The position numbers were made by a program, and so were the translations under genes. Below are positions 14,601 through 64,000 of a DNA stretch of 64,000 bases, one piece after another. This DNA is from a candidate division WOR-1 bacterium RIFOXYB2_FULL_45_9 (GTDB lineage Bacteria > Margulisbacteria > WOR-1 > O2-12-FULL-45-9 > XYB2-FULL-48-7): the NCBI GenBank assembly GCA_001771575.1, contig MEUD01000001.1:991277-1055276 (forward strand), written 5' to 3'. The stretch's first letter is position 1. Each line of letters opens with the position of its first letter. A model generated the notes under the pieces. The model did not search any database. It worked only from the letters and a program-made list of their open reading frames with translations, and had not been told where the DNA came from.

Positions 14601-16521
14601 CGTCACGGTCACCAACCCTGGTAAAACACCGGCGACCCTGGTCAATGGGTTCAAGGTTGAACCGGCGACCCTGGCGCCAACCATCAAGAGCATCACACCA
14701 GACAGCGCCCTGCAAGGGGAGACCGTTAAAGTCACAATTATTGGCGACAACTTTGAGCCGGGAGCGACCGTCCGTTTGACCAGGCTTTTCCAAACCCCGA
14801 TCAATGGAGGCAAGCTCATTTTTGTTTCCAACAAAGAGATTACCTGTGAGTTCCCGATCCCGGCTCTCGCCTCAACCGGACAATGGAATGTTGAGATCAT
14901 TCAAGGGACCGATAGCGCGGTTTTGACTAATGGTTTTACTATTATTTCATCTTCAACGATCGTCCCGACCGTCACCTCGATCGACCCCAACAACGGGGTC
15001 CAGGGAGAAACGGTCAACATCGTCAACGTCGTCGGGACAAACTTTGTGACCGGCGCGACCGTTAAGCTCTCGTTGAGCGGCCAGCCCGACATCAACGCGA
15101 CCAATGTTACCGTATTCGACAGCTCGCACATCACTTGCCGCTTCCCTCTGCCGCTCGGGGCAATGCTCGGCAAGTGGGACGTCACCGTCACCAACCCAAG
15201 CACCCTCTCCGGCACCCTACTGCAGGGTTTTGAGATCTTCGCGGCGCCGGGAACCGCTCCGGTCATCACCAGCATCACGCCTAACACCGGCAAACTGGGA
15301 GAGACCGTCGCCATTACCAATCTGGCCGGATCAAACTTCCTGAATGGCGCGACCGTTAAGATCGCCAAGACCGGTGAAACACCGATTGACGCGACCGGGG
15401 TCACCGTGATCAGCTCAAACCAGATCACCTGCTTCATTCCGCTTGCCGCGACTACCGTAACCGGCTCCTGGACCGTCATGGTCACCAATCCGGACACCCA
15501 GACCGGACAACTGACCGACGGGTTTAGCGTTACGTCGAGCGAAACCGACCCGGTCACCATTATTAATATTACCCGAGACGGTGACTCGCCCGGTTCGGGA
15601 ATCACTATAACCTGGACTACTGATCCTGCTAATATCGGAGTTGATGTTTACGCACTGACCTGCGCTATCGATCAACCATCAGCCAGCTACACATCGTACT
15701 TCACTACCGAAGCGACTAAGTGGAGCAAGGTCGCCGACAATCTGACCAGCGGAACATACCAGATCCCGAATTTAGTCGGGACCGGCAACGCGATTTACTA
15801 TAAGCTGATCGCTCACAACGCGACCCTGCAAGACAGCGACCTGCTGGCCAATGTTGTTGGAAAATTCGATCTGATCGTCGGACCGTCCGACACGCAACCA
15901 GACAAGTTCTTTGTTTCCCTGCCACTTGAGCCGATCGCTCCCAAAACCAATTCGGTCACCGATCTTTTCGGCAGCCAGGTTGGCGAGGGAGATGGGCTCT
16001 TGATCTTCAACATGAACAAAGACGTTACCTATGGCTCGCTCTATCAAGGCGGCGTTTGGGCCGCATTCCCGGGCGTACCAGCGATCAACAATTTGGCCGC
16101 CGGCCGGGCCTACGGATTCTTGACGCTGGCTGAAAAATACATCACCATTGTCGGTAAAGTGCCAACCGCGCCGACCAACGATCTGTCGCTGGCAGGTGGC
16201 TGGGACAGTGTTAAAGACCAGGCAGCGATTGCCGAATGGATTGGTAATGCTTATCCGACACCGATAAATATGGCTGTGTCCGGTTTGACCAGCGCCACTT
16301 CCATTGGCGATTCCCCTCTCAACGGCGGAACCGCATACCAGTTCAATGCCAACGCCGATCTGATGAACGGGGTTGACGGAATGGCGGTCAACACGACCGG
16401 TGGCTGGGTCAACGCGACGCTTAGCGCACCGGCCATGCTGCAGCTTGTCCCGGGTAAGGGCTATATGCTGAACGAACCGGTTAAACAGTCATTTAACTGG
16501 TCCCAGCCTAAGCCCTACTAA
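11644..16521 (+). CDS. Giant secreted surface protein: signal peptide, beta-propeller-like N-domain, at least 8 IPT/TIG-like Ig repeats, and a C-terminal module shared with the 45.4-57.3 kb paralog family
   Basis: Signal peptide 'MKSIKKAVWTIFLIFGLVTLGSAFA'. Repeats of the form 'P.I.SI.P..G..G.TV.I.G..F..GATV'. C-terminal 'YYKLIAHNA...VGKFDLIV...FVSLPLEPI'. Confidence 0.8.
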   Translation: MKSIKKAVWTIFLIFGLVTLGSAFAAADAVIIPSKSAVNPIHQTLYVPDNTTSPARIRVYSYNGSSWNTTPTNITPAGILTTAKIYGLTVSEDGSSLFVSINDLRQSRVRIYALTSGTPGTYQDATWARDGSGNLTEGDASIAGMAVQGDMLYVADMNLGRIHYFKKTNGTWAHNGDITGGLSVLGPYFDVAVSAPEANGNYSIFVTRKSNTSAKELLVYRYESGAVVNTLKTSFDLQVPTYLKIAGGKLCIALNGTDGDVKIYTISSTSPYLTEKATISNPSGVTANYGWNGLDVTPDNSYLYYIQAQNANETSTKMYKVYLPSANGAITALNVNSYTTTSKYDGLAISPDRLRLATSYSGDGTIKQFDLNGDLGNSGAIAPVVTSITPTSANWGESKAVVIKGEHFLATTTVFLVNGTEHQISAPVVVSPTTINATIDTNLFVNETKTYALRLKNGTSQNDLLSAFTINKTNQAPIAPTASGLSQKVGGQTLAFGGKTNAASITFGMKMSDPNNPDTLTPQTNIGGGSWVSGTAVSYTGTEVNGSVTVDISGYADGSYNWSARVKDAANTYSSATAPTSNPDFIIDRTPPKVSSTTPAEGSATAAPSTTIKIVFNEAMKTSVFNGAAAVVKIGTTVIAHTESYDNATNTLTITPSSPGLPPGSAVKVSLYNNSQNQAIADITGNTLDGDKDGVSEGYPTDEFKLNFTVAGTNSAPNAFDKISPTNASILYTLSPTLTWENNGDPDAGDYIDHYIVTIKNNNTQVTTDYTVAGTESSFPTPLLSVSNTYSWHVAAFDKWGASYDSQPWWYFSILPVPTPTIDANGVNPNSGERGQTLNVEITGTGFYDQTAVSFSGTGITVNSTTYNSATKVTANISISSSAALGAGDVTVTNPGKTPATLSGAFTVTDLVPTPTIDFNGVNPNSGQQGQTLNVIITGTGFISSTDVVFSGMIKDIDVNSITVNSATQLTANISIMGTAATTFRNVTVTNPGKTPATLVNGFKVEPATLAPTIKSITPDSALQGETVKVTIIGDNFEPGATVRLTRLFQTPINGGKLIFVSNKEITCEFPIPALASTGQWNVEIIQGTDSAVLTNGFTIISSSTIVPTVTSIDPNNGVQGETVNIVNVVGTNFVTGATVKLSLSGQPDINATNVTVFDSSHITCRFPLPLGAMLGKWDVTVTNPSTLSGTLLQGFEIFAAPGTAPVITSITPNTGKLGETVAITNLAGSNFLNGATVKIAKTGETPIDATGVTVISSNQITCFIPLAATTVTGSWTVMVTNPDTQTGQLTDGFSVTSSETDPVTIINITRDGDSPGSGITITWTTDPANIGVDVYALTCAIDQPSASYTSYFTTEATKWSKVADNLTSGTYQIPNLVGTGNAIYYKLIAHNATLQDSDLLANVVGKFDLIVGPSDTQPDKFFVSLPLEPIAPKTNSVTDLFGSQVGEGDGLLIFNMNKDVTYGSLYQGGVWAAFPGVPAINNLAAGRAYGFLTLAEKYITIVGKVPTAPTNDLSLAGGWDSVKDQAAIAEWIGNAYPTPINMAVSGLTSATSIGDSPLNGGTAYQFNANADLMNGVDGMAVNTTGGWVNATLSAPAMLQLVPGKGYMLNEPVKQSFNWSQPKPY

Positions 16522-16539: not shown

Positions 16540-19500
16540 ATGATCAAAAAAGTGAAGTCTTTTAAAAAATTGTTGCTTACCCTCCTAGCGGTGACACTAT
16601 TGACTGGGGCGGCTAACGCTTTGGCGGTAACTGTCTCTTGCAACGGCACCAATAGCCCGGCGAACCAAATTTATAACAGCACAGGGATCGGAGGAACGCT
16701 CCTTTCTGCCAGCAAATTCGTGCAAATCATTCAGTCCACCGACACTACTCCTGGCGCACCGGACCCAGCAACCGGCATTCCGGCTGGTGATTCAGTAGCA
16801 TCGACTGGAACCCTAGCTACCGCTGGTAATTTTTCAGCCAGTGTCAACATCACCACTAGCAACCATGTTTACATCCGAGCTTGGGAAACCTGGAACGGAA
16901 CCGGAACACCAACTGGCAAATATGGCACTTCCGAGTTAAAAAACGTCGGTACGGGTTTTACCTATACATTTAAACCGGCAAGTTTCGCGACCACTATTGA
17001 CATGCCGGTTCAAGCGACCCTTACTACCATCGCTCCCAACAGCCGCGGCCAGGGAGCACAGAGCCAAAGCCTGACTTTGACCGGTTCCAACTTCCAGAGC
17101 GGCGCCACCGTTCAGATCAGCGGCAGCGGGATCACCATTAATTCAACGACCGTCAACACCGCGACCCAGATTACGATCAACGTCAACATTGACACGGCCG
17201 CCGCCACTGGCGCCCGCAATGTCACCGTCACCAATCCGAGCGCAGAGGCCAGCAACACGGCCACGTTTACCATTAACGCCGGCCCTTTGGCGACCTCGGC
17301 CAATCCGGCCACCGCGGACCAGGGCTTTACCGGCAATGTCGTCCTGACCGGGACCAACTTCCACAGCGGAGCCTGGGCCGCCACCAACGCCGTTTTCAGC
17401 GGCAGCGGGATCACCGTCAATTCTGTCACTTTCAATAGCGCGACCCAATTAACCGTCAACGTCGCCATCGCCGCCGGAGCAACCGCCGGCGCGCGGACAG
17501 TCACTCTGACCAACCCCGATGACGCCGGTATCTTGACCAGCAGCGCGATTTTAACTATTAATACTGTTTCCACCGCTCCGACCATCACCAGGCTGGAGCA
17601 AACCAGCGCCCCCGGTGTGCCGATCACTTCGGCCAGCATCGGCGATGGTATTTCGATTATCGGTTCTAATTTCGGAGCAACTCAAGGAACCAGCACGATC
17701 GCGATTAACGGCACCGCTGTTACCGCATTTTACTACTGGAGCGCGGGCAAGATCGATATCGCGGTTCCAACCGGGGCAACTTCCGGCAACGTGGTCGTCA
17801 CTGTTAATAGCGTCGCCAGTAACGGGCAACCTTTGACGATCAACAGCGCTCCTCCGGCGCTTAGCGTCTCCACCAACAGTCTCCCCAACGGGACCGTCGG
17901 TGTCACTTTCAATCAAACCTTGCAAGCGTCCGGCGGCACTGCTCCTTACACCTCATGGGCAATTACTGTTGGTTCATTACCAGCCGGTCTGTCGCTCAAC
18001 ACTTCAACCGGAATGATTTCGGGAACGCCGACCACCGCTCAAACAGCTAACTTCACGGTCCAGGTAACCGATTCAGCCGCCATGACGGCAATCAAGGCGC
18101 TCTCGATCGTAATCGATCCGGCGGGGGTTGTAACCAATCCAAACATCTCCGGCATTAACCCGGCGACCGCTTATCTTGGCCAATCCATTATCATTAGCGG
18201 CGCTAACTTTGGCGCCAGCAAAGGGGCCAGCACCGTCTCGATCGGCGGCGTCAGCGCTCTCCCCGCCACCTGGAGCGACACTTCAATTTCCGTCGCAGTT
18301 CCTTCAGGTGTCGCCAGCGGAGCGGCCCAGGTCGTGGTCTCCGTCGCCGGCAAGACCGGCTCCAGCTCAATTTCAGTCGACACCAGCCGGACCTACCTCG
18401 AAGATTTTGAGGGAGGGTGCGTCGGCAACTGGACCATCGATAATAATAGCGACGGCAACCCGGATTCCGGCTACTACGCCTTTGGTACCGGGGTTGACCC
18501 AAATAACAGCACCATTACCGCCAACGGCCCGCAAGCCGAAGCGGCCAAAGAAGGGGCCAGGGGGATGAAGATCAAATACTCCTATACCTCTGATTGGGGC
18601 GGCGGCTGGGGAGCGGCTCTCGCTAACCAAATCAACCTCTCCAGCGCGGACAAGATCAATCTCTACGTCAAATGGGACGGCTCCAGCAACGACGTGAAAA
18701 TCGGCCTCAAAGATGCCGACGGAACTTCGTTTGCCGCTTCCGTCACCAACGCAACCCTGGCCGCCCTTTCGGGATACGGACAGGTTAGCCTTGACAAATC
18801 AAGCTTTGCTTACGACAAAGACGGCAGTGACACCGGCGCCGACGCCAGCTTCGACTGGACCAAGGTCGGAAGCTACAACCTTGTTTACACAACCAAGGGG
18901 ACAACCGCCAACTATCAATATATCGACAGCATTTTCGCGTCGACCGGGAGCACCCCGCCGCCGCCTCCACCTCCGCCAACCGGGGACGAGCCGGTCATCA
19001 CCGCGATCGATCCTGTCATCGGCCCGGCCGGGACCAAGATGACGATCACCGGTTACAACTTTAGGGACAAAGATACCAGCACCACCCGGAAGGTCCAATT
19101 TATCTCGGCCGCCAACGTCATCGTTGAAGCATCAATTATCAGCTGGGAAAGCACCCGGATCGTCCTGACCGTCCCTGCCGCTCTGGGGACCGGAGCCTAC
19201 GACGTCAAAGTCCTGGTTGAGTTCCCGTCAGCCTCTGACCCGAGCATTATCCGGTCGTTCTATTCCAACCCGGCCGCCTTCACCGTCACCGCAACCGCTC
19301 CCCCTCCGGGAACGATCATCGCCTACCCGACACCGTTCAATCCAAACAGCGGCAACCCGCTCAAGGTTGAGTTCGACCCGGGAAGCGCGACCAACATTGG
19401 GGTCTACCTGTTCGACATGACCGCCAAACTGGTCAAACGGGACAACATCTCCGTCGGCCAGTTTACCTGGGACGGCAGAGACACCTACGGCATGCCGGTC

Positions 19501-19587
19501 GGGGACGGGGTCTTCCTGGTCCGGATAGTCAACAACGAGAATCAGAGCCTGATCGCCAAAGGCAAAATCCTCGTCGTCAAGAAGTAA
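16540..19587 (+). CDS. Secreted TIG/Ig-repeat protein with C-terminal FlgD-Ig / T9SS-CTD-like beta-sandwich (cargo 1)
   Basis: Signal peptide 'MIKKVKSFKKLLLTLLAVTLLTGAANA'. IPT/TIG-like repeats. A PPPPPPPP linker. C-terminal 'AYPTPFNPNSGNPLKVEF...GVYLFDMTAKLV...FTWDGRDTYGMPVGDGVFLVRIV...KGKILVVKK'. Confidence 0.8.
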   Translation: MIKKVKSFKKLLLTLLAVTLLTGAANALAVTVSCNGTNSPANQIYNSTGIGGTLLSASKFVQIIQSTDTTPGAPDPATGIPAGDSVASTGTLATAGNFSASVNITTSNHVYIRAWETWNGTGTPTGKYGTSELKNVGTGFTYTFKPASFATTIDMPVQATLTTIAPNSRGQGAQSQSLTLTGSNFQSGATVQISGSGITINSTTVNTATQITINVNIDTAAATGARNVTVTNPSAEASNTATFTINAGPLATSANPATADQGFTGNVVLTGTNFHSGAWAATNAVFSGSGITVNSVTFNSATQLTVNVAIAAGATAGARTVTLTNPDDAGILTSSAILTINTVSTAPTITRLEQTSAPGVPITSASIGDGISIIGSNFGATQGTSTIAINGTAVTAFYYWSAGKIDIAVPTGATSGNVVVTVNSVASNGQPLTINSAPPALSVSTNSLPNGTVGVTFNQTLQASGGTAPYTSWAITVGSLPAGLSLNTSTGMISGTPTTAQTANFTVQVTDSAAMTAIKALSIVIDPAGVVTNPNISGINPATAYLGQSIIISGANFGASKGASTVSIGGVSALPATWSDTSISVAVPSGVASGAAQVVVSVAGKTGSSSISVDTSRTYLEDFEGGCVGNWTIDNNSDGNPDSGYYAFGTGVDPNNSTITANGPQAEAAKEGARGMKIKYSYTSDWGGGWGAALANQINLSSADKINLYVKWDGSSNDVKIGLKDADGTSFAASVTNATLAALSGYGQVSLDKSSFAYDKDGSDTGADASFDWTKVGSYNLVYTTKGTTANYQYIDSIFASTGSTPPPPPPPPTGDEPVITAIDPVIGPAGTKMTITGYNFRDKDTSTTRKVQFISAANVIVEASIISWESTRIVLTVPAALGTGAYDVKVLVEFPSASDPSIIRSFYSNPAAFTVTATAPPPGTIIAYPTPFNPNSGNPLKVEFDPGSATNIGVYLFDMTAKLVKRDNISVGQFTWDGRDTYGMPVGDGVFLVRIVNNENQSLIAKGKILVVKK

Positions 19588-19597: not shown

Positions 19598-21559
19598 ATG
19601 AAATTCTTTACCAAACTTGACGATATATATACGAGGGGGAAAAGCCAAATGCTAAACATCAAATTGTCGCGTGCTTGTGTCGCTTTCTTATTGCTTACAG
19701 CTTTAAGCTTACAGCTTGTTAGCCCTGCCTTCGCCTCCGGCTACCTCGCTGACCCAATGAGCATCGGCGTCGGCGCCCGCTCTATGGGGATGGGGAAAGC
19801 GTATGTCGGTATGGCTGAAGACGGGGACGCGATTTTTACCAACCCGGCCGGGATCGCCGGCATCAGCTCCGCCAAGCTCTCCAGCATGTACACCAACCTG
19901 ATGGGGGACGTTAATTACACCGTCCTCGGCGGCGCCTTTCCTTATGGCGACAAGTCGGCCATCGGGATCGGGCTGGTCAGCTCACGCGTGGCCGATATTA
20001 CCCTGCGCGACGATACCGGAGCGATCACCGGCTCCAACCTGACCTGGGGGAGCCACGTTTTGTTCGTTTCTTACGGCACCTATTTAAGCGAACTGCCGCT
20101 CAATTTGAATTTGGGCAAAGATGTCGCTGTCGGAGCCAATCTCAAGTATTATAATGTCGGCGGCTCCGGGCTCGACGGGTCCGGCTCCGGTTTTGACGCC
20201 GATCTCTCGGCCCTTTATCCGGCCAATGAATACGCAACCCTCGGCGTCACCCTGCAGAACGCCCTGCCGGCCAGCATCGGGGCCAAGATCACCAAGTCTG
20301 GGAGCGATTACGACTCTATCCCGTCAACCCTTAAGGTCGGCGCCAAAGTCGCCCTGATGGATAAAGAAGGGAAAGGGCTGTTTACCAACAACAGCCGCAA
20401 GCTTTACACCAATGTCGATTACGATTATTATCCGACCAGGACCAGCGTCCCCGGAACTCTTCACGCCGGAATCGAGTTCTGGCCGACCGAAAACCTGGCC
20501 CTGCGGGCCGGTTCCGACAGTTCCGACCTGACCCTGGGGGTCGGTGTCCGGGCTTCCGGCGTCGCTTTCGACTATGCTTATCATCCTTACAGCGGGATCA
20601 CCGAAAACACCTCCCACTATTTCTCGATCAGCTACGTCGGCGACCCGACCAAACGGACCCTCCAGATCTCGGTCGACTCGCCGGCCGACAAAGCGGTCAT
20701 TTATGACGACAACATAAAGGTCTCCGGCAAGGTCAATTTCACCGAAGGGGAAATCGGCCCCACCATCAAAGACGTGACCATTAAGGTCAATGGGGTCAAT
20801 GCCCAGGTCATGCCTGACGGCTCCTTTACCGCCAACTCTCCGGTCAACAAATACGGCAAGAAACTGATCGTCGTGGAGGCAACCACTCCCGCCGGCGACG
20901 GCACGGTCAAAGAACTGCGGCTCGTCCGCCTGACTTCGTTTGCCGACGTTCCTGAAGGGTACTGGGCCAAGATGCCGATCGAAAACAACGCCACCGTCGG
21001 TCTGGTCCAGGGTTATCCGGACGGCAACTTCAAGCCGGCCAGCGCCCTGACCCGGGCCGAGCTCGCCACCCTGCTTGTCAGGGCCAGGGGGATAGAACCC
21101 TCCGCCGGCCGCGCCCGCCAGGTCTTCAAAGACGTCAAGCCTGATTTTTGGGGAGCCAAGTACGTTGAGATCGCCCAGCGCGAAGGACTGATCAAGGGTT
21201 ACCCGGACAAGACCTTCCGACCCAACAACAAGATCAGCAAAGCGGAAGGGATCGCCGTCCTGGTCCGCTTCGACAAGCTCGCTTTAGCGGAAGTCGACGC
21301 CAAACCGTACTGGGACGTCTCCATCCATCATTGGGCGGCCCGCCACATTCAAGCGGCCAAAGACGCCGGGATGCTCAAGTTCGTCGACAACAACAGGCTC
21401 GGTCCCAAACAAGTCTTAGTCCGCGCCCAGGCGGTTGACATGCTGGGTAAAACATCTCTGGCGAGTGGCAAGATCAAAGACCTCTACACCTGGGAAAAAG
21501 GTTTCCAGAAAGAGTTCACTCCAGAAGATCGGCCAAAGATCAGGGCGTCAGTTTACTAA
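19598..21559 (+). CDS. FadL/PorV/PorP-like outer-membrane beta-barrel + Ig-like module + 3x SLH domains (barrel-SLH 1)
   Basis: Signal peptide. N-terminal 'GARSMGMGKAYVGMAEDGDAIFTNPAGIAG' (NPA strand motif of the FadL/PorV/PorP families). About 300 aa of alternating-hydrophobic beta-strand pattern. Three SLH repeats ('FADVPEGYWAKMPIE...', 'FKDVKPDFWGAKYVEIA...', 'YWDVSIHHWAARHIQ...'). An alternative ATG start lies at 19649. Confidence 0.8.
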   Translation: MKFFTKLDDIYTRGKSQMLNIKLSRACVAFLLLTALSLQLVSPAFASGYLADPMSIGVGARSMGMGKAYVGMAEDGDAIFTNPAGIAGISSAKLSSMYTNLMGDVNYTVLGGAFPYGDKSAIGIGLVSSRVADITLRDDTGAITGSNLTWGSHVLFVSYGTYLSELPLNLNLGKDVAVGANLKYYNVGGSGLDGSGSGFDADLSALYPANEYATLGVTLQNALPASIGAKITKSGSDYDSIPSTLKVGAKVALMDKEGKGLFTNNSRKLYTNVDYDYYPTRTSVPGTLHAGIEFWPTENLALRAGSDSSDLTLGVGVRASGVAFDYAYHPYSGITENTSHYFSISYVGDPTKRTLQISVDSPADKAVIYDDNIKVSGKVNFTEGEIGPTIKDVTIKVNGVNAQVMPDGSFTANSPVNKYGKKLIVVEATTPAGDGTVKELRLVRLTSFADVPEGYWAKMPIENNATVGLVQGYPDGNFKPASALTRAELATLLVRARGIEPSAGRARQVFKDVKPDFWGAKYVEIAQREGLIKGYPDKTFRPNNKISKAEGIAVLVRFDKLALAEVDAKPYWDVSIHHWAARHIQAAKDAGMLKFVDNNRLGPKQVLVRAQAVDMLGKTSLASGKIKDLYTWEKGFQKEFTPEDRPKIRASVY

Positions 21560-21595: not shown

Positions 21596-21646
21596 TACCT
21601 CCGAGTGCATAATTAGTTTTATTGGATCCAAGTTTACTCGGAGGTA
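21596..21646 (+). promoter_or_regulatory. 5'UTR hairpin with perfect 11-bp stem that sequesters the Shine-Dalgarno sequence of cargo gene 2
   Basis: 'tacctccgagt' (21596-21606) pairs with 'actcggaggta' (21636-21646). The loop is 29 nt. GGAGG lies inside the 3' arm. The ATG is at 21652. Confidence 0.45.
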
Positions 21647-21651
21647 AGATA

Positions 21652-23343
21652 ATGAAAATTAAAAGATTCCTTGGGACCATGTTAGTTGTCGGGTTATCAC
21701 TGGTCGCTTTTACCGGTATCGCCAATGCCACCGCCGTCACTGTTTCCTGTAGCAACACAAATTCACCAGCCAACCAGATCTATAACAACACCGGCGTCGG
21801 CGGGACCCTTTTACCCTCTGGCCGCTACGTGCAACTCATCCAATCAGCCGATAACACCGCAGGAGCGCCAAACAGCTCCACCGGTCTGCCAGCTGGCGAT
21901 ACGGTCATCTCTTCCGGAACACTCTCTGCCGCAGGCAACTTTACCGGCGCCTGCAATATCACTCAAAGTAATTACATCTACATCCGGGCCTGGGACACCT
22001 GGAACGGGACCGGTACCCCTTCCGGAAACTATGGAACCTCGATCCCAAGTAGTGTCGGCACCGGTTTTGTTTTTACTTATAAACCTGCCAGCTTCGCGAC
22101 CACAACCAGCTTATCCACACCCGCCACTCCGGCAGCATTAAGCGGGCTCAACCCGGACAACGGGACCCAAGGGGTCAGCAATCTGGCGGTCATATTAACT
22201 GGGACCAATATCCAGAATGGCGCCACCGCCACGTTCAGCGGGACCGGGATCACGATCAATTCAACAACTATCAACAGCGCGACCCAGGCAACGGTTAATA
22301 TCAGTATCGCGGCCTCAGCCCCCACAGGAGGTCGGACTGTTTCTTTAACCAATCCGGGCGCTTCAGCCAGCAATACCATCGCTTTTACCGTCAACGCTTC
22401 CGGCGGGGCCAACCACGCTCCAACGGCCAATGATGTCGCCACCTCAACGCCGACCAACACCGCGGTCATCGTCAACTTTAGCGCCAGCGACCCGGACGGC
22501 AATCCCCTGACCTATTCGCTGGTCTCAAGTCCAACCCACGGTAGTTTGGGCGCTATCAGCGGCAACCAGGTCACCTACACGCCGACTGCCGGCTACACCG
22601 GCTCCGACAGCTTCACCTACCGGGCTAATGACGGAACAGCCTACTCCAACGTCGCGACGGTCAACATTACCGTTGGCTCGGCAACGCCGCCGATCCCGCC
22701 AACTCCGGGAACTTCACCGGTCATTACCAACATCTATCGCTTAGGCTCCCTGGCGACCGATCCCAACAGGGCGATGGGCCCCGCGGGGGTCAGGATCATC
22801 GTGGAAGGGACCGGCTTCCGCGACAGCGCGACCAGCGCCAGCCGCGCCCTTGAGTTCACGTCGCTGACCACCTCCTCTCTGACCGAAGGGGTCATTATTA
22901 ACTGGACCGACACGACCATTGAAGCGATCCTGCCGGCCGGCCTGTCAGCCGGGCTCTACGCCGTGGACGTCAAGGTCTCCGCCCCGTCGGCGGCCGATCC
23001 ATCGATCATTACCACCTATGTTTCGACCCCGGCCAACTTCCAGGTCACTTCTTCGGCGGCCGGAGATATCGCTCAGATCTTCCCCAACCCATTCAACCCG
23101 CTGACCGAGCAGGTCAATATTGTCGTCAGCAATACCGGCGGCGCCTCCCGCCTCGGCTATTACATTTACGATATGGCTGCCCAGCTGGTTTACAAAACGA
23201 CTTCCGGCACCAGCCAAATCGCCTGGAACGGGATCGACCAATGGGGCCAGCAGGTAGCAGACGGCGCTTATCTCTTGCGGGTTGTCAACGAAGATACCAA
23301 GAGCTTGCTCGCCAAGGGTAAGATCCTCGCGGTGAAACGGTAA
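21652..23343 (+). CDS. Secreted TIG/Ig protein with cadherin-like module and C-terminal FlgD-Ig/T9SS-CTD-like domain (cargo 2, paralog of 16540..19587)
   Basis: The track ORF starts at TTG 21622. ATG 21652 with GGAGGT upstream gives signal peptide 'MKIKRFLGTMLVVGLSLVAFTGIANA'. N-terminus about 80% identical to cargo 1. 'NHAPTANDVATSTPTNTAVIVNFSASDPDGNPLTYSLV' is cadherin/VCBS-like. C-terminal 'IFPNPFNPLTEQVNIVV...GYYIYDMAAQLV...WNGIDQWGQQVADGAYLLRVV...KGKILAVKR'. Confidence 0.8.
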   Translation: MKIKRFLGTMLVVGLSLVAFTGIANATAVTVSCSNTNSPANQIYNNTGVGGTLLPSGRYVQLIQSADNTAGAPNSSTGLPAGDTVISSGTLSAAGNFTGACNITQSNYIYIRAWDTWNGTGTPSGNYGTSIPSSVGTGFVFTYKPASFATTTSLSTPATPAALSGLNPDNGTQGVSNLAVILTGTNIQNGATATFSGTGITINSTTINSATQATVNISIAASAPTGGRTVSLTNPGASASNTIAFTVNASGGANHAPTANDVATSTPTNTAVIVNFSASDPDGNPLTYSLVSSPTHGSLGAISGNQVTYTPTAGYTGSDSFTYRANDGTAYSNVATVNITVGSATPPIPPTPGTSPVITNIYRLGSLATDPNRAMGPAGVRIIVEGTGFRDSATSASRALEFTSLTTSSLTEGVIINWTDTTIEAILPAGLSAGLYAVDVKVSAPSAADPSIITTYVSTPANFQVTSSAAGDIAQIFPNPFNPLTEQVNIVVSNTGGASRLGYYIYDMAAQLVYKTTSGTSQIAWNGIDQWGQQVADGAYLLRVVNEDTKSLLAKGKILAVKR

Positions 23344-23354
23344 TGGAGGGGCAA

Positions 23355-25265
23355 ATGGAGAATATCATGAAAAACATTAAAAACATCCGGTTACTGACAA
23401 CGGTTTTTGCTTTATTGCTTACAGCTTACAGCTTACAGCTTATTTCCCCTGCCCACGCCTCCAGCTACATCGCCGAACCGACCGGCATCGCCGTCGGGGC
23501 CAGGGCCTTGAGCCTGGGCCGCGCTTATGTCGGTATCGCCGAGAACGGCGAAGCGGTCTTCGCCAACCCGGCCGGCATCGCCCTGATCACCGGTCCCAAG
23601 GTCAGCGCCATGTATTCGTCCGTCATGGGGGACGTGGGCTACAGCGTCTTGAGCGGCGCCTATCCGATCAACGATAAAGCGGCCCTGGGCCTCGGTTTTG
23701 CCAGCGCCAGGCTCTCGGGCATTCCCATTACCGATTCGACCGGCAATGTCCTCGGAACCGGGGGCTGGGGGAACCATGTCCTAACCCTCTCCTACGGCAC
23801 CTTTTTAAGCGCTTTCAATCCCAACTTTAACAAAGATATCCTGCTCGGCGCCAACCTGAAATATGTCAGCGTTGGCGGCGAAGGAACCACCGTTTCGACC
23901 GTCGGCGGGACGGCTCTCAACGCCGATCTTGGGGTCTTATTTCCGGTCAATAACCAGATCATGCTCGGGGGTGTTTTTCAGAATATCCTCGTTGGCAGTA
24001 AGCTCAACACCAGCGGCGGCTCAACCGACGACACTCTCGCCCCGGTTCTGAAGCTCGGTTCGCGCTTCAACCTGATCGGCGAAAGCGACAAGGCTTTCTT
24101 CAGCCATGCCACCCGCAAGCTCTACCTCTCCGTTGACGGCGATATCAACTTAAGCAGTAAAAAACCGTCCGCGCTTTACGCCGGTCTCGAGTTTTGGCCG
24201 GTCGAGAGCCTCGCCCTGCGCGCCGGCGCCGACAACGGCGACCTGACCGCCGGGATCGGCATCCGCTATTCCGGGGTTGAGTTCAACTACGCCTACCACC
24301 CCTATTCCGAGATCAGCGAGAACACCACTCATTACTTTTCGTTCGGTTACCTCGGCGAGGACAAAAAGCGGGAATATAACGTCCTGATCGAAAGCCCGGC
24401 CGACAAATCGATCGTCTATTCCGATAACGTCGCGGTCACCGGACGGATCGAAGGGTTCACCTCCTCCGACGCCGCCAAAAACCTGACCGTCAAGGTCAAC
24501 GACATCAACGCGGTTGTCTCCCCGGACGGTAAATTCCAGGTCAATGTCCCGGTCAACCAGTACGGCAAAAAGCTTTTGGTTGTCAAAGCTTACGATACCG
24601 AAGGAAATGCCGGGGCCAAAGACCTGCGGATCGTCCGCCTGACCTCGTTTGCCGACGTTCCCGAAGGGTACTGGGCCAAGATGCCGATCGAAAACAACGC
24701 CACCGTTGGGCTGGTCCAGGGATATCCTGACGGAAACTTCAAGCCGGAGAGGCCGCTCACCCGGGCCGAACTTGCCACCCTGTTGGTCAGAGCCAAAGGG
24801 ATTGACGTCAAGGACGATCGGGCCCGCCAGGTCTTCAAAGACGTCAAATCAGATTTCTGGGCCGCCAAGTACATTGAGATTGCTCAGCGCGAAGGGCTGG
24901 TCAAAGGTTACCCGGACAAGAGTTTCCGCCCCAATAACAAGATCAGCAAAGCTGAAGGGATCGCGGTTTTGGTCCGCTTCGACAAGCTCCCGCTGGCTGA
25001 AGCCAACGCCAAGCCATACTGGGACGTCCCCGCCTACCACTGGGCCGCCCGCTACATTGAAGCGGCCAAGTCGGCCGGGATGCTCAACTTTGTTTCCGAC
25101 AACCGTTTCAACCCGAAACAAGCGATGCTCCGCTCCCAAACTGTTGAAGTTCTTGGCAAAACTTCGCTGGCCGGCGCCAAGATCAAAGACCTGTATGAGT
25201 GGGAGAAAGGCTTTGCCCCATCAACCATCCAGGAGCGCCCGACGCTGAAGGCATCATTATATTAA
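23355..25265 (+). CDS. FadL/PorV/PorP-like beta-barrel + Ig-like + 3x SLH (barrel-SLH 2, paralog of 19598..21559)
   Basis: The track ORF starts at 23343, overlapping the previous stop. ATG 23355 follows GGAGG; ATG 23367 gives 'MKNIKNIRLLTTVFALLLTA...'. Same NPAG motif: 'GARALSLGRAYVGIAENGEAVFANPAGIA'. The SLH region is about 85% aa and about 93% nt identical to paralog 1. Confidence 0.8.
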   Translation: MENIMKNIKNIRLLTTVFALLLTAYSLQLISPAHASSYIAEPTGIAVGARALSLGRAYVGIAENGEAVFANPAGIALITGPKVSAMYSSVMGDVGYSVLSGAYPINDKAALGLGFASARLSGIPITDSTGNVLGTGGWGNHVLTLSYGTFLSAFNPNFNKDILLGANLKYVSVGGEGTTVSTVGGTALNADLGVLFPVNNQIMLGGVFQNILVGSKLNTSGGSTDDTLAPVLKLGSRFNLIGESDKAFFSHATRKLYLSVDGDINLSSKKPSALYAGLEFWPVESLALRAGADNGDLTAGIGIRYSGVEFNYAYHPYSEISENTTHYFSFGYLGEDKKREYNVLIESPADKSIVYSDNVAVTGRIEGFTSSDAAKNLTVKVNDINAVVSPDGKFQVNVPVNQYGKKLLVVKAYDTEGNAGAKDLRIVRLTSFADVPEGYWAKMPIENNATVGLVQGYPDGNFKPERPLTRAELATLLVRAKGIDVKDDRARQVFKDVKSDFWAAKYIEIAQREGLVKGYPDKSFRPNNKISKAEGIAVLVRFDKLPLAEANAKPYWDVPAYHWAARYIEAAKSAGMLNFVSDNRFNPKQAMLRSQTVEVLGKTSLAGAKIKDLYEWEKGFAPSTIQERPTLKASLY

Positions 25266-25289: not shown

Positions 25290-25300
25290 AAAAAAAATAA

Positions 25301-25331
25301 AAGCCCCGGGTAAACCTGGGGCTTTTTTGTT
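25301..25331 (+). terminator. Rho-independent terminator
   Basis: 'agccccggg taaa cctggggct' stem followed by TTTTTTGTTG. Confidence 0.65.
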
Positions 25332-26170: not shown

Positions 26171-26223
26171 GTTAATTGAAATTTTCCTTAAAATCCATCG
26201 ATATATATAGGGGAGAATAGAAT

Positions 26224-27333: not shown

Positions 27334-27345
27334 AAGGAGAAAAAA

Positions 27346-34468: not shown

Positions 34469-34489
34469 GATCCGGTATTATAACCCGAA

Positions 34490-46587: not shown

Positions 46588-46592
46588 ATTTA

Positions 46593-47717: not shown

Positions 47718-47722
47718 CCTCC

Positions 47723-49126: not shown

Positions 49127-49139
49127 TCCTAATTCCCTT

Positions 49140-50321: not shown

Positions 50322-50328
50322 TCCTTCT

Positions 50329-51972: not shown

Positions 51973-52069
51973 CCTAATTCTCCTAATTTATCCTCAAACT
52001 CGCTAAGCGTGAGCCACACCTTCCACTCCCCTCTGCCTCTTGCCTTCTCCTATTTACCCAATCCCCACT

Positions 52070-53317: not shown

Positions 53318-53335
53318 TTAATAAACCTCCTAATT

Positions 53336-54643: not shown

Positions 54644-54651
54644 ATTTCTCC

Positions 54652-55968: not shown

Positions 55969-55976
55969 TTCCTCCC

Positions 55977-60786: not shown

Positions 60787-62682
60787 TCAATAACTATCCC
60801 AATTGAGCAGGTCTCGGTTTAGGAGTTCCTGCACAACTTTGGTCCGCTGAAGCATTTCCACCGTCTCGGCGCGGGTCAACTGTTTGTTCGGTTCAAAGCC
60901 GCGCCCTTTCAGGTATTCCAGGATACCGGCGCTGTAAGCTCCCGAGATCCTCTGCGCCGCCCAGTGATTGACCCTGATATCAGGGAATTGATTTAAGTAG
61001 ACCTCTTCCGCGATCCCCGCGAACCGGGCGATCATCAGGAGCCCCTCGGCCCGGGTGATCTTCCCGTTCGGCTTGAAGACGTTCCCAGGGTAGCCTAAGA
61101 CTACTCCCTTCTTGGCCGCTTCGGCGATGAATGGAGCCGCCCAATGCTTGGCCGAGACATCTTTGAAGGCCGCTTTGGCGTCTGCAGTCGGCACCCCGAT
61201 CATTGACTTGATCAGGAGGGAGCACATCTCGGCCCGGGTAATGTTGCCTTCCGGCTTAAAGGTCCCGTCAGGGTAACCGGTGATCACTCCGGCCATCGCC
61301 AGAAGCGAGGTCGGCTTGTCAACCCAGTACCCAATGGGGACATCCGGGAAGGTGACCAGTCGCAAAATGCGCGGCCGCTTCCCGAAGATAAAAGCCTTGT
61401 CGGCGTAAGATTCGATCGAAATGGCGTTCTTACCAATATAGAGGTCGTAGGTCGTGGCAAACATCCCCTTGAGATTGAACTTGACCGGCACCCCATTCGC
61501 CCTTAAACTCTTGACCCGATAGTCAACCACCTCACCCGAAACAGGGACCTGCGCCGCAAAGGTGATCAACTTGTCTTCAGGAGAGAAGAGCTTGAACGCC
61601 TCTTTGGGGATCTCGATCTTGGGGGGCTGGAAAGCGTATGAAAGGGAGAAGAAGCTATTGTCGATGTTAGGCGCTCCTGCAAAGGTGTGGTAAGCGTAAT
61701 CAAAGCGGAAACCGCCGTAGTAGAGCCCGACACCATAGGCCATATCGGAAACGGTCGTTAAGCCTCCGTTTCCGTCGCCGGCTGAATCCTGGTCGATCCC
61801 GGCCCTGATCCCGATATAATCTATTGGTTTCCATTCCGCTCCAAGATGCATTAGCCCCGGGAAATTCTTCATTGTCGGGTGGAGCTCGTAATCGGCCAAT
61901 ATTATTAATTTATTTTCGCCGATTTTATATAAACTGTCTGTTTTACCCAAAAGGTTGACGCTTGTTCCCAGAAAAAAGACCGCCGGATAATATTCCGTGT
62001 GTCCCGAAGCGTAAGTCAGCTTTCCCCCCATCGCGGCGGGCAAAACATTGGTCCCGGTCGCACCGATCTTCAGCCACTTTTGCGGCTTGATCGTTAAACC
62101 AAGATCAAGCTCGTAGCCGCTGGCGTCGCCGCCGACGATACTGTCACCGTAGAGCGCCGCTTTGAACAACTTAACGCTGGCACCGATCGAGATCTTATCG
62201 GCAAAGGGGAGTTTGTCCAACCTAACATAACCCATTTTCTTGAGTTCGTTGGCATAGGAAATGACCATGGCGTTGTTGTAATTCCCCATGACCGGCTGGG
62301 AAGAGTCGACCACGAAGATCGGATCGTCCGGGTCGGAGGCCGCTTCAATGGTGGTGGCAAAAGCGCCGCCGATCGAGGTCCCGGCAAAACCAAAGCCGAT
62401 CACCCCAAAGTCGGTGGCGTAAAGTCCGGAAGCGGAGAGGTAGGAGTATTCATCAAGGAATTTACCGGACATGGAAGAGAGTTGCCACCCTTCAATCCCC
62501 GCCATACCGGCCGGGTTGGAGTACATTGCCCCCGCGTCATCAGACAAGCCTATGTAAGCTTTGCCTAAACCAAGGACCCTGGCGTTAGGAATATAGCGGG
62601 TCGGGTCCTGGGCGACATATTCCGCCAGGGCAACCCCCGCGACTAACAACATTAACACTAATAGAGTTATAACTCTTTTCAT
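60787..62682 (-). CDS. FadL/PorV/PorP-like beta-barrel + 3x SLH (barrel-SLH 3)
   Basis: The track ORF starts at GTG 62697. ATG 62682 gives 'MKRVITLLVLMLLVAGVALA'. 'LGLGKAYIGLSDDAGAMYSNPAGMAG'. Three SLH repeats ('FPDVPIGYWVDK...', 'FKDVSAKHWAAPFI...', 'FPDIRVNHWAAQRI...'). Confidence 0.8.
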   Translation of the reverse strand: MKRVITLLVLMLLVAGVALAEYVAQDPTRYIPNARVLGLGKAYIGLSDDAGAMYSNPAGMAGIEGWQLSSMSGKFLDEYSYLSASGLYATDFGVIGFGFAGTSIGGAFATTIEAASDPDDPIFVVDSSQPVMGNYNNAMVISYANELKKMGYVRLDKLPFADKISIGASVKLFKAALYGDSIVGGDASGYELDLGLTIKPQKWLKIGATGTNVLPAAMGGKLTYASGHTEYYPAVFFLGTSVNLLGKTDSLYKIGENKLIILADYELHPTMKNFPGLMHLGAEWKPIDYIGIRAGIDQDSAGDGNGGLTTVSDMAYGVGLYYGGFRFDYAYHTFAGAPNIDNSFFSLSYAFQPPKIEIPKEAFKLFSPEDKLITFAAQVPVSGEVVDYRVKSLRANGVPVKFNLKGMFATTYDLYIGKNAISIESYADKAFIFGKRPRILRLVTFPDVPIGYWVDKPTSLLAMAGVITGYPDGTFKPEGNITRAEMCSLLIKSMIGVPTADAKAAFKDVSAKHWAAPFIAEAAKKGVVLGYPGNVFKPNGKITRAEGLLMIARFAGIAEEVYLNQFPDIRVNHWAAQRISGAYSAGILEYLKGRGFEPNKQLTRAETVEMLQRTKVVQELLNRDLLNWDSY

Positions 62683-62714
62683 TAATTTACTTACCACTTA
62701 ATACTTGCCGCTTA

Positions 62715-64000
62715 TTATCTAATATGATGCTGGAGCATTGATCCGGGAATGAGCAGGATCGGCGCCTTCGCGATCCTTTTGCCGGTCGCCGGATCGATAA
62801 AAATCGACATCCCGATCTGGGCGGCGCGATCCGGCCGCAAGTCCTGGGTCTGAGCGGTCAGCCTGGCCCGGTCGGCCCGGACGCTGACGTCCATTTTCTT
62901 TGTCCCAAAAGCGCCGGTTTTGCTGAAAGTTTTGCGGTAGATGACCTGTCCGGTCCTGGCCCCGCTGACAATGATCCACTGGATCTGGTCCGGCAAATTC
63001 CCGTTCTTGGTCCAGACCGTGGCGTAGAAGTTCCCTCCACCGTCAATCTCCACCGGAGTAGTGATCGCCCTGGTCTCCTCAACGGCGGTCCCTCCCCCTC
63101 CCCCTTCGGTATAAAGGTCATAGCGGATTATCCCAACATGACCAGCATCGTCTTCGGCGTAAAAGAAGAGGGTGACCGGCCGGCCATCAGTGTTGGGCAA
63201 ATTTGCGTTAAAAATAAAGTTTTCTACGTACGCTTTGAGCGGCGGAACGGTCGAATCGTCAAACCGGATGTAACTGCTTGGGATGTCTTCAATAACGGTG
63301 ACAATGTTTATCCCTTCATTATACCTGGCAACAACCTTCGCCCTGACCGTGCTCGCGTTCAATGAATTGGGCAAAATGGTTGAAATGTCAAAACTGATCC
63401 TCGGGTTGGGGCTGACGGTCGTGGCAGGGGTTTCGGAAAGAAGGGCTTCCGGATAAACATTGCCGTTGATCGAGACCCTGCTGATCGTTACCTCGCCCGA
63501 TCCATTAATAATAGTTAAGGCGTTAATCTCTCTGGTCGCGGTCGAATCGGGATTGGTGACCAGCAGGTCCCTGGTCCCCGCCTCAATGCTCGGATCGATA
63601 AAAATGTTAATCACAATTTTACTTGCGCTTTCGTAAGTCGTTGACCTGACATCAACATCATAATCAAACGAGGTTTCGCCGCTCTTCATAAAGGCCGATG
63701 ACAGGGGACTGCCGCCCGGATACGACGGCATAAAATCGGTCCCGCTGACTTCGATCGTCCCGATCCAGCCGCGATACCTGGTGCTGGGAGTAAGGGCTGT
63801 TACCGTCGGCGAGCGGAGTCGGTAGATCCGTCCGATGTCGCCGCACATATACGCGTAAACCCCGGCCAGTTCACCCGGATAGACCAGCCGGACAAAAATA
63901 TCCTGAATGTTGGTCGCCGGGGTGTAATCATATATCCCCCAGTTGGACCCGCCGTCGGTCGTGTAAGCGGTCACTCCGCTATCCCCCGCGACCCAACCAA
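62715..64000 (-). CDS. Ig/TIG-like surface protein, 5'-truncated by the window edge
   Basis: The reading frame stays open upstream of the first in-window start (GTG 63974) to the window end. No signal peptide is visible. 'VTALTPSTRYRGWIGTIEVSGTDF' is IPT-like. Confidence 0.55.
   Translation of the reverse strand, partial: GWVAGDSGVTAYTTDGGSNWGIYDYTPATNIQDIFVRLVYPGELAGVYAYMCGDIGRIYRLRSPTVTALTPSTRYRGWIGTIEVSGTDFMPSYPGGSPLSSAFMKSGETSFDYDVDVRSTTYESASKIVINIFIDPSIEAGTRDLLVTNPDSTATREINALTIINGSGEVTISRVSINGNVYPEALLSETPATTVSPNPRISFDISTILPNSLNASTVRAKVVARYNEGINIVTVIEDIPSSYIRFDDSTVPPLKAYVENFIFNANLPNTDGRPVTLFFYAEDDAGHVGIIRYDLYTEGGGGGTAVEETRAITTPVEIDGGGNFYATVWTKNGNLPDQIQWIIVSGARTGQVIYRKTFSKTGAFGTKKMDVSVRADRARLTAQTQDLRPDRAAQIGMSIFIDPATGKRIAKAPILLIPGSMLQHHIR

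What the first reader, a model, noticed from the sequence alone, without database searches (positions are those of the whole stretch)
19598..21559. Inverted OmpM/Slp-like architecture: barrel first, SLH last
Established knowledge: known SLH-containing OM tethers of diderm Firmicutes/Deinococcus/Thermotoga (OmpM, SlpA, Ompalpha) have N-terminal SLH followed by a C-terminal porin barrel. Here all three paralogs have signal peptide, then a FadL/PorV-like barrel, then an Ig-like domain, then 3x SLH at the C-terminus. With the barrel in the outer membrane the SLH triplet would sit in the periplasm on a roughly 100-aa Ig spacer. That would be a different solution to OM-wall tethering, and it suggests the organism is a diderm with SCWP/peptidoglycan-anchored OM proteins.
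Basis: partly seen in the sequence, partly recalled or inferred. Interest (0 to 1): 0.6.

Follow-up and report, generated by a model that had tools for sequence, protein, structure and literature searches.

The report
Wall-anchored PorV-like barrel paired with surface proteins
In an uncultured relative of cyanobacteria, an outer-membrane barrel of the type that holds secreted proteins on the cell surface is fused to a cell-wall-binding module and is always encoded next to a surface protein carrying the matching tag. This suggests one protein pins both the outer membrane and a surface coat to the wall.

Summary
ORF 19598-21559 and two paralogs (23343-25265; 60787-62697, minus strand) each encode a signal peptide, a PorV/PorQ-family 14-strand barrel, an Ig-like domain and three C-terminal SLH repeats.

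The window is 100% identical to candidate division WOR-1 (Margulisiibacteriota/Saganbacteria) RIFOXYA12_FULL_52_29. A same-population bin has CsaB and a separate OmpM-like protein in a published table.

The "inverted OmpM" reading is only partly right:
- The barrel is not an OmpM-type porin.
- Barrel-first, wall-binder-last is the OmpA order.
- Relatives carry LysM or SPOR in place of SLH, so the C-terminal slot is a periplasmic wall anchor.

The new point is gene context. The gene immediately upstream ends in a ~90-aa T9SS-type CTD. This holds in 10/10 main-clade loci, both LysM/SPOR variants and 2/5 divergent loci. The CTD model best matches PorU and PorZ, which are T9SS components that keep their CTDs; PorZ is held at the cell surface by PorQ.

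Best reading: a wall-pinned docking barrel for a cognate surface protein. It would do in one polypeptide what the Bacteroidota PorP-PorE pair does with two, using SLH. CTD binding, and how the cargo crosses the outer membrane, are inferred or unknown.

New variant of a known kind; I found no paper on it.

The parts
19598..21559 (+). Paralog 1 (OGC11766.1, A3K48_04660): signal peptide, PorV/PorQ-family barrel, Ig-like spacer, 3x SLH. The alternative start is ATG 19649.
19598..19735 (+). N-terminal leader and type I signal peptide (aa 1-46, or 18-46 if the start is M18). Cleavage site AFA|S.
   Evidence: Read directly from the sequence; homologs start at the M18 position.
19736..20635 (+). Hatch helices (aa 47-92, with conserved N82-P83-A84-G85) plus a barrel of about 14 strands (aa 93-346). 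The last strand, HYFSISY, ends in an aromatic residue.
   Evidence: NF033709 match at 103.3 bits; AF2 secondary structure; Foldseek matches to PorV 8gl6_F and 6h3i_F; conserved columns
20651..20932 (+). Ig-like beta-sandwich spacer (aa 352-445).
   Evidence: Weak Pfam Glucodextran_B match; AF2 strands 355-444 with pLDDT about 85-92
20933..21493 (+). SLH triad (aa 446-632) with motifs TRAE / SKAE / VRAQ. R486, E550 and R609 are invariant in the family.
16540..19587 (+). Cognate cargo 1: a 1015-aa secreted protein rich in TIG, He_PIG and choice-of-anchor-Z repeats. It ends 10 nt before paralog 1.
19312..19584 (+). T9SS-type C-terminal domain (CTD) of cargo 1 (aa 925-1015; YPTPFNP...GKILVVKK).
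   Evidence: CTD HMM E 1e-39; matches to the PorZ C-terminus and FlgD_ig
21622..23343 (+). Cognate cargo 2: a 573-aa Big_9/cadherin-like protein. Its stop overlaps the start of paralog 2 by 1 nt.
23065..23340 (+). CTD of cargo 2. It matches TIGR04183 Por_Secre_tail at 23.3 bits (cutoff 23). The AF2 model best matches PorU and PorZ.
23343..25265 (+). Paralog 2 (OGC11768.1): same architecture. Barrel aa 49-336, Ig 348-428, SLH about 431-620.
25299..25326 (+). Terminator-like hairpin (12-bp stem followed by a T-rich tail) closing the tandem cargo/barrel unit.
   Evidence: consensus scan only
60787..62697 (-). Paralog 3 (OGC11797.1 as a shorter gene call): divergent member, 30% identical. PorV_fam match at 58 bits (below the cutoff), Ig 371-430, 3x SLH.
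62715..63974 (-). Gene upstream of paralog 3: 419 aa with a weak choice-of-anchor-Z repeat. Its C-terminus (...ATGKRIAKAPILLI...) is shared with the L010 homolog but is not recognised by the CTD HMM.

Best explanation
Each of the three genes encodes an outer-membrane protein. Its N-terminal 14-strand PorV/PorQ-family (FadL-superfamily) barrel sits in the outer membrane. Its C-terminal Ig-like spacer and SLH triad hang into the periplasm and bind the cell wall, probably pyruvylated secondary cell-wall polymer made with CsaB. The barrel is proposed to hold, on its outer face, the T9SS-type C-terminal domain of the large surface protein encoded immediately upstream and co-transcribed with it. This would resemble PorQ holding PorZ, PorV binding type A CTD proteins, and PorP/SprF holding type B CTD proteins in Bacteroidota. 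The result would be a chain running wall, outer membrane, surface protein. One polypeptide would do what the PorP barrel and the peptidoglycan-binding lipoprotein PorE do together, using the Terrabacteria-type SLH module, and it would also tether the outer membrane as OmpA does. Shown: the domain architecture, the fold similarities, the interchangeable wall-binding modules and the conserved gene pairing. Inferred: the periplasmic location of SLH, the SLH ligand, the physical barrel-CTD contact, and retention of the CTD. Unknown: how the cargo crosses the outer membrane.
For: Architecture and fold:
- NF033709 matches above the cutoff for paralogs 1 and 2.
- AF2 model with pLDDT 81.
- The best PDB matches are PorV in the SprA translocon, including the RemA-CTD-bound complex 8gl6_F, followed by SLH triads crystallised with pyruvylated SCWP units.
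- The SLH profile matches Sap at E 8e-20.
- TRAE-type arginines are invariant.

The C-terminal slot is a wall anchor:
- Among the 149 closest 50%-identity cluster representatives of the barrel, the barrel is always N-terminal.
- 92 of them carry one or two SLH triads.
- Non-SLH relatives carry LysM (P0195, P0264) or SPOR (P0266, P0232); P0266 is named Margulisiibacteriota.

Wall ligand and diderm status:
- A same-population bin with a 100% identical paralog 2 is listed with CsaB, and its clade is treated as diderm.

Cargo pairing:
- The gene directly upstream (from a 4-nt overlap to tens of nt) ends in the same ~90-aa CTD in the window (twice), L002-L005, L006, L007, L008 and L011.
- The same holds for the SPOR (L086) and LysM (L088) variants, and for L013 and L015.
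- The CTD meets TIGR04183 (23.3 against 23) and weakly matches the PorZ and PorU C-termini.
- A homolog has a precomputed Por_Secre_tail hit.
- Its AF2 model (pLDDT 88.8) best matches PorU 6za2 and PorZ 5m11.
- Barrel and CTD pairwise identities covary (r 0.70, Mantel p about 2e-4), with matched subclades.
- Between the tandem paralogs, SLH is 79.7% identical but the barrel only 49% (the CTD HMM segments are 40% identical). This fits one shared wall ligand and different partners.

Precedent:
[quoted passage not shown] - PorE links PorP to peptidoglycan.
- The PorU and PorZ CTDs are not cleaved (PMC9143113; bioRxiv 10.1101/2020.05.13.094771).
Against: - No direct evidence of barrel-CTD contact; no complex model could be run.
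- I could not check whether this genome has a SprA/Sov translocon, PorU, or PorK-N. T9SS is regarded as an FCB-group system, so cargo export is unexplained.
- Paralog 3 and two of its relatives (L010, L012) lack a recognisable CTD gene upstream.
- Covariation of barrel and CTD could reflect shared descent only.
- The high SLH identity between the tandem paralogs could be gene conversion (81% at DNA level).
- The equivalog models for PorV, PorQ and PorV2 are far below their cutoffs.
Confidence: 0.58

Rival explanations
1. A generic outer-membrane-to-wall tether, analogous to OmpA or OmpM. The barrel is only a membrane anchor, and adjacency to CTD proteins reflects co-regulation of envelope genes rather than binding.
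For: The barrel plus interchangeable SLH/LysM/SPOR modules show a wall-tethering role. SLH is the most conserved part of the protein. CsaB is present in the same population.
Against: The organism already has a separately listed OmpM-like protein. The barrel belongs specifically to the family that binds CTDs. The tight, often overlapping, conserved pairing with a CTD gene across SLH, SPOR and LysM variants, and the matched subclades, are not expected for a generic tether.
Confidence: 0.22
2. A FadL-like channel for hydrophobic compounds that happens to be anchored to the wall.
For: Weak Toluene_X matches. FadL/TodX fold matches. The hatch region has a conserved N-P-A-G motif.
Against: Pfam Toluene_X scores (14.6-19.1 bits) are below the cutoff of 29.7. 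TM-scores to FadL/TodX (about 0.4-0.48) are lower than to PorV (0.62-0.65). No lipid or aromatic catabolism genes are nearby; the neighbours are surface proteins.
Confidence: 0.08
3. A mobile PorV-type shuttle of a complete T9SS that collects cargo from a SprA translocon and hands it to a PorU sortase.
For: The best structural match is PorV in the SprA complex. The cargo has a type A-like CTD.
Against: A wall-pinned barrel cannot shuttle. There is one barrel per cargo gene rather than one general shuttle. The PorV equivalog score is 28.5 against 250. No paper links T9SS to this phylum. The T9SS core was not tested here.
Confidence: 0.07
4. An inverse-autotransporter-like or monoderm S-layer-like protein in which the Ig and SLH parts are exposed on the cell surface.
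For: An N-terminal barrel followed by C-terminal Ig domains resembles the intimin/invasin order.
Against: The barrel has a hatch and is PorV-like, not the 12-strand intimin type. SPOR and LysM occupy the same slot and bind peptidoglycan. The clade is listed with OmpM and treated as diderm.
Confidence: 0.03

Closest known systems
PorP/SprF-like barrels together with PorE (Bacteroidota T9SS type B CTD anchorage; Gorasia et al. 2022, PMC9143113)
   Same: A 14-strand FadL-family barrel is encoded next to its cognate CTD surface protein (sprB/sprF). The barrel holds the CTD at the surface. A periplasmic peptidoglycan-binding partner links the barrel to the wall.
   Different: Here the wall binder is fused to the barrel and is SLH (or LysM/SPOR), not an OmpA-like domain on a separate lipoprotein. 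The barrel matches PorV/PorQ models, not PorP/SprF. The CTD is type A/FlgD_ig-like. The phylum is Margulisiibacteriota, outside the FCB group.
PorQ-PorZ and PorV-PorU pairs of the T9SS attachment complex
   Same: The barrel meets the PorV/PorQ family model. The cargo C-terminus is structurally closest to PorU and PorZ, whose CTDs are retained. PorZ is held at the cell surface by PorQ.
   Different: The equivalog thresholds are not met. The C-terminal Ig+SLH extension was not seen in the PorV chains matched here (345-367 aa). Each barrel is paired with its own large adhesin-like cargo. No sortase or A-LPS pathway is shown.
OmpM / Slp(SlpA) / SomA SLH-porins of diderm Terrabacteria
   Same: SLH in the periplasm ties an outer-membrane barrel to the wall. 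They co-occur with CsaB. The SLH profile also matches the OmpM (8bym) and SlpA (7zgx) SLH domains.
   Different: The order is reversed. There is an Ig spacer instead of a coiled-coil stalk, three SLH repeats instead of one, and a 14-strand PorV-like barrel instead of a porin. The family is not listed as OmpM in the published survey, which lists another protein.
OmpA
   Same: N-terminal barrel and C-terminal periplasmic wall-binding domain; non-covalent tethering of the outer membrane to the wall.
   Different: OmpA has an 8-strand barrel and an OmpA_C domain. No PF00691 match was found here.

Membership tests
PorV/PorQ family (NCBIfam NF033709) | HMM score at or above the curated cutoff (90 bits) | tested here: met
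   103.3 bits (paralog 1) and 92.8 bits (paralog 2). Paralog 3 scores 58 bits, below the cutoff.
PorV/PorQ family (NCBIfam NF033709) | 14-strand FadL-superfamily barrel resembling solved PorV | tested here: met
   Foldseek matches to 8gl6_F (E 1.8e-12) and 6h3i_F (E 2.1e-11), TM 0.62-0.65 on the target. About 14 strands by DSSP plus a loop hairpin.
PorV, PorQ or PorV2 proper (equivalogs NF033710, NF033711, NF052325) | Equivalog HMM cutoff (250 / 220 / 325 bits) | tested here: not met
   28.5, 37.2 and 59.7 bits
T9SS-type cargo/barrel pair | Partner protein carries a T9SS CTD | tested here: met
   TIGR04183 match at 23.3 against 23. PorZ and PorU C-terminal matches. Fold matches to PorU and PorZ. 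The pairing is conserved in 14 of 17 loci.
T9SS-type cargo/barrel pair | Physical binding of the CTD to the barrel | not testable with these tools
   Only covariation is available (r 0.70). No multimer prediction could be run.
Complete type IX secretion system | SprA/Sov translocon, PorK-N, PorL/M and PorU in the genome | not tested
   Only 64 kb of the 1.67-Mb contig is visible, and none of these was recognised in the window.
OmpM / SLH-porin tether | SLH domain plus outer-membrane barrel in one protein | tested here: met
OmpM / SLH-porin tether | N-terminal SLH, coiled-coil stalk, C-terminal porin-type barrel | tested here: not met
   SLH is C-terminal (aa 446-632), no long helix is present, and the barrel is PorV-like. 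In solved OmpM the SLH lies at residues 31-95 of 435.
OmpM / SLH-porin tether | CsaB (PF04230) present in the genome | tested here: met
   From the literature table: the same-population bin RIFOXYB12_FULL_52_16 lists CsaB OGC29232.1. This was not checked on the genome sequence itself.
FadL/TodX transporters (PF03349) | Pfam gathering score of 29.7 bits | tested here: not met
   14.6-19.1 bits over about 40-50 residues of the hatch only
OmpA | OmpA_C-like peptidoglycan-binding domain | tested here: not met
   No PF00691 match
SLH wall-binding triad (Sap/SpaA type) | Three SLH repeats forming the pseudo-trimer, with TRAE-type motifs | tested here: met
   Three Pfam stretches. TM 0.75-0.86 to 3pyw, 6bt4 and 7sv5. 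Motifs TRAE / SKAE / VRAQ with invariant R486, E550 and R609.
SLH wall-binding triad (Sap/SpaA type) | Binding to pyruvylated SCWP | not testable with these tools
   Inferred from the motifs and from CsaB co-occurrence.

The most novel reading that the evidence does not exclude
Margulisiibacteria use a self-contained surface-display module that does not depend on the Bacteroidota T9SS. A CTD-tagged adhesin or S-layer-like protein is captured by its own PorV-like barrel, which is itself bolted to the wall by SLH, LysM or SPOR. If so, the CTD/PorV-like pairing is older or more mobile than the T9SS, and diderm Terrabacteria have a second class of SLH-based envelope staple besides OmpM, one that also organises the cell surface.
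Probability: 0.3. Interest if true: 0.75.

Novelty: new variant of a known kind. Interest (0 to 1): 0.55.

Why it matters
If this reading is right, three consequences follow.

- **Tethering surveys.** SLH-mediated tethering of the outer membrane in diderm Terrabacteria would not be limited to OmpM-type porins. A published survey that defined OmpM as SLH plus barrel listed this family only as SLH proteins.
- **Reach of the CTD/barrel logic.** The pairing of a T9SS-style CTD with a FadL-family barrel would extend to a phylum sister to Cyanobacteria. The peptidoglycan link that Bacteroidota provide with PorE would here be built into the barrel.
- **Testability.** It gives a simple model for how uncultured Margulisiibacteria attach large adhesin-like proteins. 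These bacteria include ectosymbionts (my own knowledge, not checked here).

The interchangeable SLH, LysM and SPOR modules are a natural experiment on wall-anchor choice.

Tried and rejected
- **Monoderm S-layer protein.** Rejected. The N-domain is a confident barrel with PorV as its best match, and the clade is listed with OmpM and CsaB.
- **Family counted as OmpM by Witwinowski et al.** Checked and rejected. OGC21508.1 and OGC31283.1 appear only in the SLH column.
- **P0140** (the closest barrel representative, apparently lacking SLH). This is a frameshifted long-read assembly, as is its upstream gene. I ignored it.
- **Pfam scan of all 149 representatives.** I replaced it with HMMs built from alignment A1.
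- **P0019.** Not on record.
- **Literature searches.** PorV+SLH, PorV+'S-layer homology', Margulisbacteria+'type IX secretion' and Margulisbacteria+S-layer found nothing relevant.
- **Neighbours 27346-29871 and 57556-60759.** PDB sequence searches gave nothing usable.
- **Promoter and terminator scan.** Counts do not exceed shuffles. Only the hairpin at 25299-25326 is noteworthy.
- **GTDB genome scan.** It was swamped by the SLH pattern, and only 10 of 80 loci were full-length.
- **Whole-genome inventory** (SprA, PorU, BamA, csaB on METY01000001.1). Not possible with the tools available.
Full report
**What is there.** ORF 19598-21559 (+) encodes 653 aa.
- Pfam finds three SLH repeats at the C-terminus (E 2.9e-28) and a weak Ig-like Glucodextran_B match at about aa 357-437.
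- NCBIfam places the N-terminal 300 residues in the PorV/PorQ family (NF033709). The score is 103.3 bits against a cutoff of 90. The PorV, PorQ and PorV2 equivalog models are far below their cutoffs.
- BLASTP inside the window confirms two paralogs with the same layout: 23343-25265 (+), 58% identical, and 60787-62697 (-), 30% identical.
- The leader ends in ...LQLVSPAFA|SG. Homologs start at the position of M18 (ATG 19649), so the annotated ATG 19598 may be 17 codons too early. Both starts have a Shine-Dalgarno-like sequence.

**Structure.** An AF2 model built on 45 homologs has mean pLDDT 81.3.
- It shows helices at 53-88 (hatch region) and about 14 long strands between 93 and 346, plus a short hairpin in one loop.
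- A beta-sandwich follows at 355-444, then three helical SLH units at 458-629.
- Foldseek against the PDB ranks PorV first: 8gl6_F (the SprA-PorV-RemA-CTD complex) and 6h3i_F, with TM 0.62-0.65 on the target.
- Next come the SLH triads of Sap and SpaA, several crystallised with pyruvylated SCWP fragments (TM 0.75-0.86). FadL/TodX follow only at TM 0.4-0.48.
- A profile search of PDB sequences aligns the whole triad to Sap (E 8e-20). It also hits the N-terminal SLH of OmpM (8bym) and SlpA (7zgx).
- The TRAE-type motifs read TRAE / SKAE / VRAQ, and R486, E550 and R609 are invariant in the family.

**Organism.**
- The three proteins are OGC11766.1, OGC11768.1 and OGC11797.1. GenBank calls them 'hypothetical protein' and UniRef calls them 'SLH domain-containing protein'.
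- More than 345 homologs were found. Where they are named, they come from Margulisiibacteriota, WOR-1 or Saganbacteria; one is attributed to Candidatus Sulfotelmatobacter and a few carry no phylum name.
- Among GTDB species representatives, full-length matches occur only in Margulisiibacteriota or Saganbacteria MAGs or in unnamed MAGs.

- Witwinowski et al. (bioRxiv 10.1101/2021.05.31.446380) searched 1,093 genomes. They defined OmpM as SLH plus barrel.
- Their Data Sheet 1A lists, for WOR-1 RIFOXYB12_FULL_52_16, an OmpM/OmpM-like protein (OGC29368.1), ten SLH proteins including OGC31283.1 and OGC31285.1, and CsaB (OGC29232.1).
- OGC31283.1 is 100% identical to the window's paralog 2, so that bin is the same population.
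- For RIFOXYB2_FULL_42_35, family member OGC21508.1 (P0072) is likewise only in the SLH column. Another protein is listed as OmpM, and CsaB is present.
- The organism therefore belongs to a clade treated as diderm. It has the pyruvyl transferase and has a separate OmpM-like protein. This family went unnoticed as a barrel protein in that survey.

**Is the C-terminal part a periplasmic wall anchor?**
- A full phmmer scan with the barrel alone (aa 47-350) against 1.84 billion representatives gave 5,303 hits at E<=1e-3 and 165 at E<=1e-30. In the top 149 the barrel is always N-terminal.
- Using HMMs built from the family alignment, 92 of the 149 carry SLH triads. Of all 149, 65 have the Ig spacer.
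- About 27 have the SLH triad directly after the barrel, and several have two triads.
- Relatives without SLH carry other peptidoglycan-binding modules in the same position: LysM (P0195, P0264) or SPOR (P0266 at 60.5 bits, a Margulisiibacteriota protein, and P0232).
- Swapping SLH for LysM or SPOR makes sense only if this slot faces the peptidoglycan.
- Both termini of even-stranded outer-membrane barrels are periplasmic (established knowledge). Together these points support the predicted topology.
- I could not inspect the model coordinates, so this remains an inference.

**Gene context changes the interpretation.**
- In the window each of the two tandem genes follows a large secreted protein rich in TIG, He_PIG, Big_9 and 'choice-of-anchor Z' repeats. 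Cargo 1 is 16540-19587 and ends 10 nt before paralog 1. Cargo 2 is 21622-23343 and overlaps paralog 2 by 1 nt.
- Both cargos end in a ~90-aa domain (YPNPFNP ... NIGxYIYD ... WDG ... DGxYLxRVVNE ... AKGKILVxKK).
- That domain matches FlgD_ig and TIGR04183 Por_Secre_tail (23.3 bits against a cutoff of 23). It also weakly matches the C-termini of PorZ and PorU.
- An HMM of this domain finds it at the end of the gene immediately upstream of the barrel gene in L002-L005 and in L006, L007, L008 and L011.
- It also finds it upstream of the SPOR variant (L086) and the LysM variant (L088), both with 4-nt overlaps, and in L013 and L015 of the divergent clade.
- The totals are 10/10 main-clade loci, 2/2 non-SLH variants and 2/5 divergent-clade loci.
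- Paralog 3 and L010 have an upstream gene with a different shared C-terminus (...ATGKxIAK...). L012 has no match.
- An AF2 model of the cargo C-terminus (pLDDT 88.8) has PorU (6za2, E 7e-7) and PorZ (5m11, E 1.8e-5) as its best PDB matches.
- Barrel and CTD pairwise identities across 14 pairs correlate (r 0.70, Mantel p about 2e-4), with matched subclades. Shared descent could produce this too.
- Between the tandem paralogs, SLH is 79.7% identical but the barrel only 49%. The CTD HMM segments are 40% identical.
- A terminator-like hairpin at 25299-25326 closes the unit.

**Comparison with what is known.**
- PorU and PorZ keep their CTDs, and PorZ is held at the cell surface by PorQ.
- SprB is held by SprF, encoded by the adjacent gene. 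PG1035 is held by PorP.
- PorP is tied to the wall by the periplasmic peptidoglycan-binding lipoprotein PorE. [quoted passage not shown]
- The window protein looks like that arrangement in a single chain, with SLH in place of an OmpA-like domain, in a Terrabacteria phylum.
- It works like OmpA or OmpM as a tether. It is not a member of either family, because the defining order, stalk and barrel type of OmpM are not met and there is no OmpA_C domain.
- It is a member of the broad PorV/PorQ family, but not of the PorV, PorQ or PorV2 equivalogs.

**What remains open.**
- Barrel-CTD contact is inferred.
- I could not test whether the genome has SprA, PorU or PorK-N, so the route of the cargo across the outer membrane is unknown.
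- The SLH ligand is inferred from the motifs and from CsaB.
- No paper in the searchable library mentions PorV together with SLH, or T9SS in Margulisbacteria.

**Verdict.**
- This is a new variant of a known kind (a PorV/PorQ/PorP-type CTD-docking barrel fused to a wall anchor). It is widespread in one candidate phylum and I found no description of it.
- Interest is moderate to high for cell-envelope evolution and for T9SS biology.

Noticed in passing
window 45439-57404 (-): Ten consecutive genes encode 380-550-aa proteins with signal peptides and no Pfam match. They are weakly paralogous (25-30% identity in pairs). One of them (45439-46587) ends in the same T9SS-type CTD (E 6e-9). Several others end in an aromatic-rich strand with a conserved W.
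   Followed up: partly
window 11644-16521 (+); L002 3869-7873; L003 2105-5170; L087 1198-4953: The gene two positions upstream of the barrel gene is a 1000-1600-aa protein with Big_5 and choice-of-anchor-Z repeats. It has a different conserved C-terminus (...LQLxPGKGYMxxEPV..F/I.W...KPY). It is part of the conserved cluster, and its role is unknown.
   Followed up: partly
window 25478-27333 (+), repeats 26090-26167 and 27256-27335: Two lipoprotein-like genes downstream of paralog 2 share a 90% identical ~80-nt 3' end. It encodes a Cys-containing tail, DPCAGKTGVFLSACKK. Together with an ~800-aa protein that has no database match (27346-29871), they are conserved downstream in L002 and L003 (two genes, ~205-215 and ~350-365 aa). 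In L087 a single 477-aa gene precedes the ~800-aa gene.
   Followed up: partly
window 3319-8858 (+): A Ser/Thr kinase (3319-5805) and a PP2C phosphatase (5802-8858) lie upstream of the surface-protein cluster. A PP2C gene is at the same relative place in L002 and L087, which hints at phospho-regulation of the cluster.
   Followed up: no
window 34001-36000: GC content drops to 0.418 against about 0.52-0.58 elsewhere. The dip covers the methyltransferase gene (34490-35281) and the start of a 795-aa protein without matches, next to a PMT_2 glycosyltransferase (37718-39361).
   Followed up: no
window 57556-60759 (-): A 1067-aa secreted protein lies downstream of paralog 3. It has no family match apart from a marginal hit to a phage tail fiber (6cl6, E 0.003). 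Its C-terminus...GTIIGKALKSMPAGQKGKLLVLVTLQ, is unlike the CTD.
   Followed up: partly
L004 8001-10640; P0086, P0099, P0268: Longer family members (835-954 aa) carry two SLH triads. P0268 repeats the Ig-plus-triad unit, so the length and valency of the periplasmic arm vary.
   Followed up: yes
L087 (ENA contig_75602), P0140: The closest 50%-identity cluster representative of the barrel appears to lack SLH. This is only because the long-read assembly is frameshifted, both in it and in the upstream cargo gene. It is a caution for architecture counts.
   Followed up: yes
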